A stretch of 64,000 nt of DNA from positions 105,239 to 169,238 of the forward strand of contig CAWDJC010000024.1 of assembly GCA_963802525.1 (NCBI GenBank), read 5' to 3'. Source of the DNA: an uncultured Actinomycetota bacterium. GTDB lineage: Bacteria; Actinomycetota; Actinomycetes; Mycobacteriales; Mycobacteriaceae. The position numbers are program-made. Shown piece after piece: positions 30,301 through 33,300 of the stretch (the first letter of the stretch is position 1; each line of letters opens with the position of its first letter).

Positions 30301-33300
30301 GTGCGCGGCGGTGCGGGGTGGCGGCGGTGTCGTGCTTCTTGGTGATTTTCGCGCCGTCGCGGACTTTAACGACGAGTTTCTGTTGAGGGTAGAAGTAGTT
30401 GGTCAGCAAGGGACTGCAGCGTCCAGATCTTGTTGAGTAGCACCAGTTCTGCGGGCGTGTCGTAGCGGTGGTAGCCGACTAGGGCGCGCACGGTGTGGAC
30501 ATCCCCCAAAACCGTGGAGGCATGGACTATGAGGAGTAGTCATGCCAGATTCGCGAAGGAAGTTCGACCCGGAGTTTCGGGAGGGTGCGGTTCGCATCGT
30601 CCGTGAGACCGGTAAGCCGATTGCCCAGATAGCGCGCGAGCTGGGTGTGCACCCGGGGACCCTGGGAAACTGGGTTGCCAAGGACCGCGCTGAACGCGAC
30701 GGCACGCAAGGGCTTTCGACGGGTGATGCCGCGGAGCTGAAGCGGTTGCGCGCCGAGAACGCCAAGCTGCGGATGGAGCGCGATGTTTTAAAACGATCGG
30801 TGGTTCTCTGGGTCTTATCCCGATCTCGGGATAAGACCCATAATGCCGAGCACCGGATTATGCCGAGGACGCCGCTGAATCGTCTGCGGGGTAAGGGATC
30901 TGTGTCCACGGACTCGGCATAATCCCGGATCCTGTTGGTGACGAGACTTCTGTCCAGGAAGCGCATCTGGAGAGGAGCAGGTCATGAACAGTAGAGCGAA
31001 GCGGGTATGGGTTCGTGGGCCGTTGGGCCCGTACTCGGAGGGGTTCCGCACGGAGTTGGTCGCGCGGGGATATGAGCCGAGTTCCGCGGCGGGTCAGCTT
31101 CAGGTGATGGCGCACCTGAGCCGCTGGCTGGTCGATCGGGGCTTAGACGGACATGGGCTCACGTCCAGTGTTGTGGAGGAGTTCCTGCGGGCCCGACGCG
31201 TCGCGGGCTACGGGCAGTGGCTGTCGGCGCGGGGCGTGGCGCCGCTGCTGGATCATTTGCGTGAAGTTGGGATCGCCCCGGTCTGCTCGCTGGCCGTGGC
31301 CGACAGCGCGGTGGAGGTTCTGCTTGCCGCGTACCGGGCCTATCTGGTCGAGGAGCGCGGGCTGGCCGCGTCGACGGTTCGCAACTACGTCGATGTGGCG
31401 CGCCAGTTCGTGTCGGAGTATTGCGCGTCGGGACGTACGGACCTGTGCGGCTTGACCGCGGCCCAGGTAAGCGAGTTCGTGCTGGCTGGGTGCAGTACCC
31501 GTTGTGTTGGGTCGGCTGCGATTCTCGTTGTCGGGATGCGGGCGCTGCTGCGCTACCTGCATCTGGCGGGAGTCACGGAGACGGGGTTGGCGGGTGCGGT
31601 GCCGTCGGCGGCATCCTGGCCAGCGAGCTGTCTGCCACAGCCGATCGATCGGCGGCAGGCGGCGCGGCTGTTGTCTTCCTGCGACCGCCGAACCGCGTTG
31701 GGGCGCCGCGACTTTGCGGTGCTCACGCTGCTGCTGCGGCTCGGGTTGCGGGTCGGCGAGGTCGCGGCCCTGGAACTGACCGATGTGGACTGGCGTCACG
31801 GTGAGATCTTGGTTCGCGGCAAGGACCATCGTGAGGAGCGGCTGCCGTTACCGGCCGATGTCGGGCAAGCCGTCGCCGGCTGGCTGCGGCGAGGTCGGCC
31901 TCGGTGCGCCTGCACGCATGTGTTCACCACACTGATCGCCCCGCGAAGTGAACTGTCCGGCAAGGCGGTGTCGGCGATCGTCCGACGGGCCGGGCAGCGA
32001 TCCGGCGTGGTGGTGACGGCGCATCGGCTGCGGCACTGCGCCGCAACCGAGTTGCTGCGTTCTGGCGCCAGCCTGCCCGAGGTCGGTCAGGTCCTGCGGC
32101 ACGCCAGCATGCTCAGCACCGCCATATACGCCAAGGTCGATCACGGCGCGCTGTCAACTGTGGTGCGGCCGTGGCCGGCGGGTGCGCGGTGAGCGGCCTG
32201 CGTGGCGCGGTGGCCGACTATCTCACCGTCCGTCGCACGTTGGGTTTCAAGCTCGCCGGCGCGGGGCTGCTGCTCGAGCAGTTCGTCGACTTCGCCGACG
32301 CGGCCGACACCGACACGATCACCACGCAGCTGGCGGTGCAGTGGGCCACGCTCCCCTCGGGTAGCTCCTCGACCTGGCACGCGCAACGGCTCAGCGTGGT
32401 GCGCTGCTTCGCCCGCTGGGTGCAGGCCTTCGATCCGGCCGTCGAGGTGCCACCGGTGGATCTGCTGCCGGCACGCGCCGGGCGCGCCACGCCGTATCTG
32501 TATGCCGATGCCGATGTCGCCGCCCTGATGGCCGGGGCCGGGCGGCTGCGCTCGCCGCTGGCCGCCGCGACGATGCAGACGTTCATCGGGCTGGTGTTCG
32601 CCACGGGGCTGCGGCGCGGGGAGGCGCTGGGTCTGGACCGCGGCGATTTCGACCCGGCCACCGGCGTCCATCTCGAAGCGGGGGCCCACGTGCGCTGTGT
32701 CGGCAAGGGACGCAAACAGCGCTGCACGCCGCTCACCGCCCAGACGGTCGCGGTGCTGCGAGGCTGGCTGGCCGAACGACGAGGCCGACCCGAGGATCCG
32801 TTGTTCCCGACCAGCCGCGGTCGGCCGCTCAGTCGTGACGCGGTCGCGCTGCTGGTCACCAACCACGCGATCACGGCGCGGCGGCGCTGCCCCTCGATCG
32901 ACGCCAAGACGATCACCCCGCACGTCCTGCGTCACTCGACCGCCATGACCCTATTGCACGCGGGCGTGGACACATCTGTGATCGCGCTCTGGCTCGGCCA
33001 CGAGAAAACAGACACGGTCCAGATCTATCTGCACGCAGATCTTCGCCTCAAAGAACGCGCCCTCGCTCGCACCACACCCCTCAATGCGGCTCCGGGCCGA
33101 TACCGACCCCCCGACACGCTGCTCGCCTTCCTCGAGGCGCTGTGATTATGCCGAGTGCGTGGACACGGATCCCTTACCCCGCAGACGATTCAGCGGCGTC
33201 CTCGGCATAATCCGGTGCTCGGCATTATGGGTCAACGAGGCGACGAAGTGAGCGTGGCCCGCTTCGTCGCCGACCAGAGGACCATGCACCGGGTGCCGCA

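What the first reader, a model, noticed from the sequence alone, without database searches (positions are those of the whole stretch)
32189..33145. RIT trio collapsed to a duo by an in-frame ritB/ritC fusion retaining a full catalytic set
Established: RIT elements carry three tandem tyrosine recombinases. Seen: only two lie between the intact 84-bp IRs. The second reads as RitB up to ...GLRRGEALGLDRGDFDPATGV and as RitC from HLEAGAHVRCVGKG..., with the junction near 32664-32670. It stays open and supplies R (GLR), K (GKG), HxxR (HVLR), H (LGH) and Y (QIY). Inference: a deletion between equivalent positions of the paralogs created a possibly active hybrid with B-type DNA binding and C-type catalysis, a natural test of whether three subunits are required.
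Basis: partly seen in the sequence, partly recalled or inferred. Interest (0 to 1): 0.65.

Follow-up and report, generated by a model that had tools for sequence, protein, structure and literature searches.

The report
Recombinase-trio element with fused second gene
A small mobile element that normally carries three recombinase genes has lost 956 bases here. The loss welds the second and third genes into one intact-looking hybrid, but this is most likely one of several ordinary ways these elements decay, not a working two-gene version.

Summary
Between 99-nt inverted repeats (30835-30933 / 33135-33233) lie ritA (30984-32192, 402 aa) and one 318-aa ORF (32189-33145).

- **Hybrid origin.** Residues 1-160 of the ORF are 94% identical to RitB. 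Residues 161-318 are about 97% identical to RitC residues 172-329 of intact 402/308/329-aa trios in soil metagenomes and MAGs (94-95% nt identity).
- **The deletion.** It is 956 bp, in frame, at a 3-bp CGT microhomology (32665-32667).
- **Register.** It is not in paralogous register. The Arg-I to Lys spacing is 31 residues, against 25 in both parents. Arg-I comes from RitB; Lys, HxxR, His and Tyr come from RitC.
- **Artefact unlikely.** ritB and ritC share no exact word longer than 12 nt, and the missing piece is nowhere else in the assembly.
- **No sign of activity.** There is one copy in the genome. The junction was absent from two public contig collections, and no full-length close match appeared in the protein search. 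Window-lineage changes are too few to detect selection. RitA carries a private GKG-to-GKD change. AlphaFold is less confident about the hybrid catalytic domain than about intact RitC.
- **Not unique.** At least six other independent RitB/RitC fusions with different junctions exist, plus a 425-bp mini-element.

Verdict: a real hybrid, probably a relic. Earlier notes of this scan on the same window cover its IS3 target and nesting, and notes on other genomes describe site-specific RIT insertion.

The parts
30809..30813 (+). TGGGT, the last bases of IS3 orfA before the insertion. The same 5 bases end the right repeat (33228-33232), so this is the shared core or duplicated target.
   Evidence: Sequence. 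The joined flanks align without gaps to 74 of 80 related IS3 loci.
30814..30835 (.). 22-nt perfect palindrome CTTATCCCGATCTCGGGATAAG between the target core and the left repeat. It is carried by the element, not by IS3.
   Evidence: It is absent from empty IS3 sites. In related copies it always lies on the orfA side, whichever way the trio points.
30836..30933 (+). Left terminal inverted repeat, with three copies of the 11-bp motif ATWATGCCGAG (30840, 30857, 30913 reversed).
   Evidence: the repeat finder I1. Motif scan: 6 hits in 64 kb, all in the two repeats, 0.9 expected.
30984..32192 (+). ritA, 402 aa, full length. It carries a private G281D change in the GKG motif next to the catalytic Lys.
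   Evidence: PF00589 E 7e-27. It is 92-93% identical at protein level to RitA of intact trios L011, L012 and L104. GKD here versus GKG or GKA in 13 relatives.
32189..32667 (+). ritB-derived part of the hybrid gene (codons 1-160). It contains the core-binding domain, the linker, the first catalytic-domain helices, Arg-I (R142) and strand 1. The start GTG overlaps the ritA stop (GTGA), as in intact trios.
   Evidence: 94% identity to RitB P0005 residues 1-160. blastn to L011 1-1839. Domain layout from the AlphaFold model.
32665..32667 (+). Deletion junction: the CGT microhomology shared by ritB (L011 1837-1839) and ritC (L011 2793-2795). 956 bp are missing relative to intact relatives.
   Evidence: The same missing stretch is seen against L040, L104 and same-genus G545.
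32668..33145 (+). ritC-derived part of the hybrid gene (RitC residues 172-329). It contains the Lys hairpin (K173), HVLRH, LGH, the catalytic Tyr (Y280) and the RitC-specific C-terminal helix. A private Gly-to-Glu change lies two residues after the junction.
   Evidence: 154 of 158 residues identical to RitC P0001. Motif positions. C-terminal helix H309-317. Gly in 83 of 99 RitC homologues and Glu in none at that position.
33135..33232 (-). Right terminal inverted repeat with three ATWATGCCGAG motifs (33145, 33201, 33218). It ends in TGGGT.
30496..34173 (+). Host IS3-family insertion sequence split by the element. It comprises orfA 30542-30813, the slippery site T_TTA_AAA 30787-30793, the orfB remainder 33233-34141, imperfect terminal repeats, and GTG duplicated at 30493-30495 / 34174-34176.
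   Evidence: Pfam HTH_Tnp_1, HTH_21 and rve. The joined flanks restore orfA (...VVLWVNEATK*) and a continuous -1 OrfAB. Ends.
30046..35082 (-). Outer rve-type insertion sequence split by the IS3. It has an N-terminal part at 34177-35048 and a C-terminal part left of 30495, and it is itself frameshifted.
   Evidence: Inverted repeats I2 and I7. rve hit. Joining across the IS3 restores ...EQKNWS|TVRALVGY....

Best explanation
This is a recombinase-in-trio (RIT) element that integrated site-specifically at the orfA/orfB frameshift window of an IS3-family insertion sequence. That IS3 is itself nested in another insertion sequence. The RIT later lost 956 bp by an illegitimate, microhomology-mediated (CGT) deletion running from ritB codon 160 to ritC codon 171. 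The deletion happens to be in frame, so ritA is now followed by one 318-aa RitB(1-160)/RitC(172-329) hybrid.

The hybrid keeps the RitB DNA-binding domain and Arg-I. From RitC it keeps the Lys, HxxR, His, Tyr and C-terminal helix. It has a 6-residue longer hairpin and a catalytic domain stitched from paralogs that are only about 23-26% identical. The element has also lost the RitC DNA-binding domain and the RitB active site.

Most likely the element can no longer move on its own and is a young relic. It is one of several recurrent ways RIT elements decay: B/C fusions with other junctions, truncations, nested insertions and a 425-bp mini-element.

Shown: the deletion, its breakpoints, the parentage of each half, the intact ends and the recurrence of fusions elsewhere. 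Inferred: the slippage-type mechanism of the deletion and the loss of autonomous mobility.
For: Parentage and breakpoint:
- define the two halves and the junction.
- Intact 402/308/329 trios at 94-95% nt identity occur in L011, L012 and L104, and at 78% in L040.
- Same-genus genomes G545 and G259 keep the B-C stretch at 94% identity.

The deletion is real:
- The longest exact word shared by ritB and ritC is 12 nt and does not lie at the junction.
- The missing 955 bp are absent from the whole 95%-complete assembly.

No sign of spread:
- There is one copy in the genome.
- The junction, written as a codon-degenerate pattern, was not found in genome contigs or metagenome contigs.
- No full-length close relative appears among the 120 best hits listed from the 5.8-billion-protein search, which scored 8000 candidates.

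Structural cost:
- Arg-I to Lys spacing is 31 against 25 in both parents.
- AlphaFold with the same 56-row alignment gives block means of 72-84 pLDDT across the C-derived catalytic part of the hybrid, with a dip to 59 at residues 151-160. The corresponding part of intact RitC (residues 121-280) scores mostly 88-96.

Hints of drift:
- RitA has a private G281D change in the GKG motif.
- A private Gly-to-Glu change sits next to the junction.

Recurrent decay:
- Independent B/C chimeras are P0015, P0019, P0065, P0071, P0122 and P0130, with different junctions. P0015, P0019 and P0130 lack the Arg-I helix, and P0015 is a lone gene beside an IS66.
- Mini-element L052, a truncated and nested RIT in L016, and truncated or interrupted copies in G545 and G259 show other routes.
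- The literature already notes RITs with missing or truncated CDS (PMC3414803).
Against: - The hybrid ORF is open, with every catalytic residue present.
- Translational coupling to ritA (the GTGA overlap) is kept.
- Both 99-nt repeats and all six 11-bp motifs are intact.
- The AlphaFold model still gives a canonical Xer-like fold with the three-stranded sheet.
- Window-lineage substitutions show no clear relaxation. The hybrid has 5 synonymous and 3-4 non-synonymous private changes. The whole element has 14 synonymous and 16 non-synonymous, against 79 and 48 on the other branches (Fisher p = 0.15). The deletion may therefore be too recent to judge.
- No RIT has ever been assayed (PMC10214605), so it is not known that all three proteins are needed.
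Confidence: 0.75

Rival explanations
1. The two-gene form is an active element. RitA plus the RitB/RitC hybrid still assemble on the repeats and carry out excision, inversion or integration, showing that three separate subunits are not required.
For: - The full catalytic set is present, the ORF is open and coupled to ritA, the repeats are intact, and all six identical 11-bp motifs are present.
- All six motifs share one sequence, so a single DNA-binding specificity might serve all sites. This is inference.
- The model folds as a Xer-like recombinase.
- The 31-residue Arg-to-Lys spacing lies within the range of active tyrosine recombinases such as Cre and Flp. This is from my own knowledge and was not tested here.
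- There is no excess of damaging substitutions in the hybrid.
Against: - There is a single copy, and the junction is unique in all collections searched.
- An in-frame outcome is expected in one of three random deletions.
- Other B/C fusions are clearly crippled or stranded.
- The RitC DNA-binding domain and the RitB active site are lost.
- Model confidence in the stitched catalytic domain is lower than in intact RitC.
- RitA carries GKD instead of GKG.
Confidence: 0.09
2. The element is non-autonomous but still mobilisable. The proteins are dead or insufficient, but the intact ends could be used in trans by an intact RIT of the same family entering the cell.
For: - The ends, palindrome and motifs are intact.
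- A 425-bp mini-element with only the ends sits at the same IS3 site in another genome (L052). That copy could be a decay product formed in place, or a derivative moved in trans.
Against: - No intact helper or other RIT of this family is in this genome.
- There is no second copy of the deleted form anywhere.
Confidence: 0.12
3. The missing 956 bp is an assembly or sequencing artefact, and the strain really carries an intact trio.
For: The genome is a 37-contig draft.
Against: - ritB and ritC share no exact word longer than 12 nt, and only CGT at the junction, far below any assembler word size.
- The missing segment is not on any other contig.
- The locus is single-copy inside a contig of at least 169 kb.
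- The join is in frame.
Confidence: 0.03

Closest known systems
RIT (recombinase-in-trio) elements: ritA-ritB-ritC of Cupriavidus metallidurans CH34 and relatives (Van Houdt 2009/2012, PMC3414803; Ricker 2013; RitA/RitB/RitC subgroups of Smyshlyaev 2021, PMC8138268)
   Same: - The gene order and 4-bp gene overlap match.
- RitA is about 400 aa, and the RitC-type C-terminal helix is present.
- The element has long terminal inverted repeats and no cargo.
- It is inserted in another mobile element's transposase region.
- It is 94-95% identical in DNA to intact actinobacterial trios.
   Different: It has only two genes. The second is a RitB(1-160)/RitC(172-329) hybrid created by a 956-bp deletion.
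[quoted passage not shown]
   Same: These are RIT copies that have lost part of the trio and were read as traces of recombination or decay.
   Different: Those are described as missing or truncated genes. An in-frame B/C hybrid with a full catalytic set is not described in the papers I could search.
Other RitB/RitC fusion proteins in public data (P0015, P0019, P0065, P0071, P0122, P0130)
   Same: Each has an N-terminal RitB part joined to a C-terminal RitC part in one ORF. P0019, P0065 and P0071 directly follow a ritA gene or fragment.
   Different: All have different junctions: B~131/C170, B~140/C169, B~81/C28, B~95/C97, B172/C158 and B122/C245. P0015, P0019 and P0130 lack Arg-I, and P0122 duplicates the Arg-I/Lys segment. 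Identity to the window protein is only 50-58%.
Tn554-family transposons (TnpA and TnpB tyrosine recombinases plus TnpC)
   Same: They are mobile elements that work with two tyrosine recombinases, which shows that a two-recombinase transposon is possible in principle.
   Different: The recombinase subgroups are different, they have an accessory TnpC, and they have no long inverted repeats. The window proteins are RitA/B/C by 92-97% identity to trio members.
XerC/XerD heterotetramer
   Same: It is the closest solved folds and NCBIfam models. It is a paradigm of two paralogous tyrosine recombinases sharing one reaction.
   Different: It is a chromosomal housekeeping system acting at dif. All scores here are far below the Xer equivalog cut-offs (110-125 bits against 279-335).

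Membership tests
RIT element | Three adjacent, co-oriented tyrosine recombinase genes ritA, ritB and ritC | tested here: not met
   Only two ORFs lie between the repeats. Relatives at 94-95% identity have 402/308/329-aa trios. The window copy is therefore a deletion derivative of a RIT, not a complete one.
RIT element | Short (4-8 bp) overlaps between consecutive genes | tested here: met
   The ritA stop and the hybrid start overlap as GTGA at 32189-32192, as in L011 and L012.
RIT element | [quoted passage not shown] | tested here: met
   RitA is 92-93% identical to RitA of intact trios. Hybrid residues 1-160 are 94% identical to RitB, and 161-318 about 97% identical to RitC. Assignment is by identity to genes in trio context, not by the published subgroup HMMs.
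RIT element | RitC-specific extra C-terminal helix (PMC8138268) | tested here: met
   The model shows helix 309-317 (RYRPPDTLLAFLEAL) after the Tyr helix, matching 320-328 in intact RitC.
RIT element | RitA with two sequential core-binding domains (PMC8138268) | not tested
   Only length (402 aa) and homology were checked. No structure was predicted for RitA.
RIT element | Terminal inverted repeats | tested here: met
   99-nt arms, 94% complementary, each with three ATWATGCCGAG motifs.
RIT element | Mobility as a unit | not testable with these tools
   There is a single copy here. Relatives occupy the same IS3 site in several genomes in both orientations. [quoted passage not shown]
Tyrosine recombinase (Pfam PF00589) | Catalytic domain with R, K, HxxR, H/W and Y | tested here: met
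   PF00589 E 2e-25, one continuous stretch across the junction. Residues R142, K173, H245, R248, H271 and Y280 are present and are invariant columns in the 56-sequence alignment.
XerC/XerD | Score above the NCBIfam equivalog cut-off | tested here: not met
   112 and 109 bits against cut-offs of 329.6 and 335.
BIM (bipartite module) elements | One tyrosine recombinase plus a conserved non-recombinase partner (Famint45) (PMC3414803) | tested here: not met
   Both genes here are tyrosine recombinases.

The most novel reading that the evidence does not exclude
RitA plus the RitB/RitC hybrid is a functional two-recombinase element. The hybrid would supply RitB-type DNA recognition of the six identical 11-bp motifs and RitC-type chemistry. 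That would show that the puzzling three-subunit design of RIT elements can be reduced to two, and that recurrent B/C fusions are evolutionary trials, not only wreckage.
Probability: 0.08. Interest if true: 0.65.

Novelty: new member of a known kind. Interest (0 to 1): 0.3.

Why it matters
RIT elements are widespread, but no one has shown how they move or why they need three recombinases to cut four strands.

This copy is a clean, naturally made RitB/RitC hybrid with intact ends, a defined target site and 94-95% identical intact trios for comparison. That makes it a ready construct set for a first RIT assay comparing trio, duo and single-gene drop-outs.

On present evidence the copy itself is an ordinary decay product. 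Its main value is as a reagent idea, and as one data point showing that B/C fusion is a common way for RITs to break down.

Tried and rejected
- **Junction search.** A codon-degenerate 44-nt pattern gave 0 hits in genome contigs and 0 in metagenome contigs.
- **Other copies in the genome.** No second copy of the element, the IS3 or the deleted 955 bp was found.
- **Selection test.** Pairwise dN/dS of the window genes (0.11-0.59) is similar to that of intact pairs (0.08-0.37). Private changes are too few to decide (Fisher p 0.15-0.21).
- **Is P0015 a spreading duo?** It occurs on 21 contigs, but it is a lone gene next to an IS66 in one plasmid-like context, seen across many samples of two assembly series. 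Rejected.
- **Is the 22-nt palindrome native IS3 sequence, such as a frameshift stimulator?** Empty IS3 sites lack it, and it would place a stop in the orfAB frame. Rejected.
- **Did the element's own recombinases make the deletion?** Neither the TGGGT core nor the 11-bp motif occurs at the breakpoints. Rejected.
- **Representative search.** The 1.84-billion-representative search added two more chimeras (P0122, P0130) but none with this junction.
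Full report
**Anatomy**

Between 30000 and 35100 the window holds three nested mobile elements.
- An outer rve-type insertion sequence on the minus strand (about 30046-35082) is split by an IS3-family element (30496-34173). GTG is duplicated at both IS3 ends.
- The IS3 is in turn split between orfA and orfB by the element in question.
- Joining the flanks in silico restores the outer transposase across ...EQKNWS|TVRALVGY...
- It also restores IS3 orfA (...VVLWVNEATK*) and a continuous -1 frameshift OrfAB read from the slippery T_TTA_AAA at 30787-30793.

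The inner element reads as follows:
- TGGGT (30809-30813)
- a 22-nt perfect palindrome (30814-30835)
- the left inverted repeat (30836-30933)
- ritA (30984-32192)
- a second recombinase gene (32189-33145)
- the right inverted repeat (33135-33232, ending in TGGGT)

The repeats are 99 nt and 94% complementary. Each carries three copies of ATWATGCCGAG. These six copies are the only ones in the 64-kb window, where 0.9 are expected by chance.

Both ORFs are tyrosine recombinases (PF00589, E 7e-27 and 2e-25). They score far below the XerC/XerD cut-offs.

A search of 5.8 billion proteins with the second ORF returned two kinds of close hits:
- 308-aa proteins matching only its first half at 90-94% identity
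- 329-aa proteins matching its second half

Pairwise alignments show the split.
- Residues 7-166 (324-aa numbering) are 94% identical to residues 1-160 of P0005, and the match ends there.
- Residues 167-324 match residues 172-329 of P0001 at 154 of 158 positions. Upstream of that the alignment collapses to paralog level.

P0005 and P0001 are the middle and last genes of intact 402/308/329-aa trios on metagenome contigs L011 and L012. Five more intact trios of the same family were recovered (L018-L022). Further intact copies occur in MAGs L104 (95%) and L040 (78%).

**Breakpoint**

blastn places window 30828-32667 on L011 1-1839 and window 32662-33232 on L011 2790-3360.
- 956 bp are missing.
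- ritB and ritC are in different frames (4-bp overlap), and a 956-bp loss puts the ritC remainder into the ritB frame.
- At base level the only sequence shared by the two parental sites is CGT (5 of 6 for CGGCGT/CGACGT), at window 32665-32667.

The event is therefore an illegitimate, microhomology-type deletion. It is not recombination between aligned paralogous stretches.

In protein terms RitB V160 is joined to RitC H172. Both parents have 25 residues between Arg-I and the hairpin Lys, whereas the hybrid has 31. The join is thus 6 codons out of register and lengthens the first hairpin.
- RitB contributes the four-helix core-binding domain, the linker, the first three helices of the catalytic domain with Arg-I, and strand 1.
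- RitC contributes strands 2-3 with Lys, then HVLRH, LGH, Tyr and the RitC-specific last helix.

**Artefact?**

- The longest exact word shared by ritB and ritC is 12 nt, and none lies at the junction.
- The missing 955 bp match nothing in the 37-contig, 95%-complete assembly.
- The locus is single-copy within a long contig.

A collapse of repeats cannot produce this join. I put an artefact at about 3%.

**Is the duo alive?**

In favour:
- The ORF is open.
- All catalytic residues are present, at columns that are invariant in 56 homologues.
- Start/stop coupling to ritA is kept.
- The ends and motifs are intact.
- The AlphaFold model has a Xer-like fold, with XerA, XerH and XerD as top structural matches.

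Against:
- There is one copy in the genome.
- There is no intact helper in the genome.
- The junction is absent from one genome per 185,579 species and from 241 million metagenome records.
- No full-length close relative exists among the protein hits.
- With the same alignment, AlphaFold is markedly less confident in the hybrid's catalytic domain. Block means are 72-84 with a dip to 59 before the junction, against mostly 88-96 for the same part of intact RitC. The RitB-derived binding domain scores 88-97.
- RitA has a private G281D change that turns the GKG Lys motif into GKD. Thirteen relatives have GKG or GKA.
- A private Gly-to-Glu change sits two residues after the junction. At that position 83 of 99 RitC homologues have Gly and none has Glu.

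Substitution counts do not decide the matter. Private changes are 9 synonymous and 12 non-synonymous in ritA, and 5 synonymous and 3 (4 with Gly-to-Glu) in the hybrid. This is not significantly different from other branches. The deletion may be recent.

**Context from relatives**

B/C fusion is not rare. Classifying hits against RitB and RitC references revealed six further chimeras with different junctions:

| Protein | RitB part | RitC part | Note |
|---|---|---|---|
| P0015 | ~1-131 | 170-329 | |
| P0019 | ~1-140 | 169-329 | |
| P0065 | 1-81 | 28-329 | |
| P0071 | ~1-95 | 97-310 | |
| P0122 | 1-172 | 158-329 | duplicates the Arg-I/Lys segment |
| P0130 | 1-122 | 245-329 | |

- P0015, P0019 and P0130 lack the Arg-I helix.
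- P0015 is a lone gene beside an IS66.
- P0019, P0065 and P0071 follow a ritA gene or fragment on short contigs.

Other decay forms of the same family:
- a 425-bp mini-element joining the ritA start to the ritC end (L052)
- a RIT with truncated ritB interrupted by another RIT (L016)
- in two genomes of the same genus, a copy lacking ritA (G545) and the same copy with a 3.6-kb insertion (G259); both keep the B-C stretch at 94% identity

One deletion in three is in frame by chance, and only in-frame products are annotated as single proteins. The recurrence therefore needs no selection. The literature already records RITs with missing or truncated genes (PMC3414803). [quoted passage not shown]

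**Verdict**

The parts of the interpretation about exact paralog register, a clean split into B-type binding and C-type catalysis, and possible activity are not supported, or are supported only in part.

The best reading (about 0.75) is a recently crippled, single-copy RIT relic. About 0.1 remains for an active duo and about 0.1 for a trans-mobilisable shell.

It is a new member (a defective derivative) of a known kind. It is of modest interest in itself, but it suggests a useful construct set for the first functional test of RIT elements.

Noticed in passing
window 30809-30835 and 33228-33240; loci L012, L016-L022, L040, L052, L104, L128: This RIT family always sits at one site of IS3-family elements, ...CTCTGGGT|CAACGAGG..., which lies 15 nt downstream of the -1 frameshift heptamer. 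The joined flanks align without gaps to 74 of 80 IS3 relatives (best 95.5%). TGGGT is present at both junctions. This target specificity resembles what earlier notes of this scan reported for other RIT families.
   Followed up: partly
window 30814-30835; L011, L012, L016, L018-L022: The 22-nt palindrome is element-borne, yet it always lies on the IS3 orfA side whichever way ritA-to-ritC points. Some contigs show the palindrome plus an orfA end on both sides. This fits in-place inversion between the repeats. It also fits integration of a circle whose junction (right repeat, palindrome, left repeat) is one giant palindrome with a TGGGT core on either strand.
   Followed up: partly
window 30840-30923 and 33145-33228: Each terminal repeat carries three copies of ATWATGCCGAG: two direct copies at the outer end and one inverted copy at the inner end. 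These six copies are the only ones in 64 kb and are candidate recombinase binding sites. All six share one sequence although the element encodes three different recombinases.
   Followed up: partly
L052:1602-2028: A miniature RIT of about 425 bp sits at the same IS3 site in a Dormibacterota MAG. It comprises the palindrome, both repeats, the first codons of ritA and the last codons of ritC. It is a possible non-autonomous derivative.
   Followed up: partly
L016:3652-10404: A RIT (401-aa ritA, 259-aa truncated ritB, 107-aa ritC fragment) is interrupted by a second, intact RIT (399/306/333 aa), so one RIT is nested inside another.
   Followed up: no
window 30046-35082: The nesting is triple: an outer rve insertion sequence, then IS3 (GTG duplication), then the RIT. 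The outer transposase is also frameshifted after the restored join. L012 carries the same IS3::RIT composite with a different left flank starting exactly at the IS3 end. The order 'IS3 first, RIT later' is therefore not proven for this locus.
   Followed up: partly
G505 (same genus), C6:199419-201277 and C3:2047-3878: A 77-78% identical RIT relative is present in two copies in one genome of the same genus. This could be a candidate active family member.
   Followed up: no
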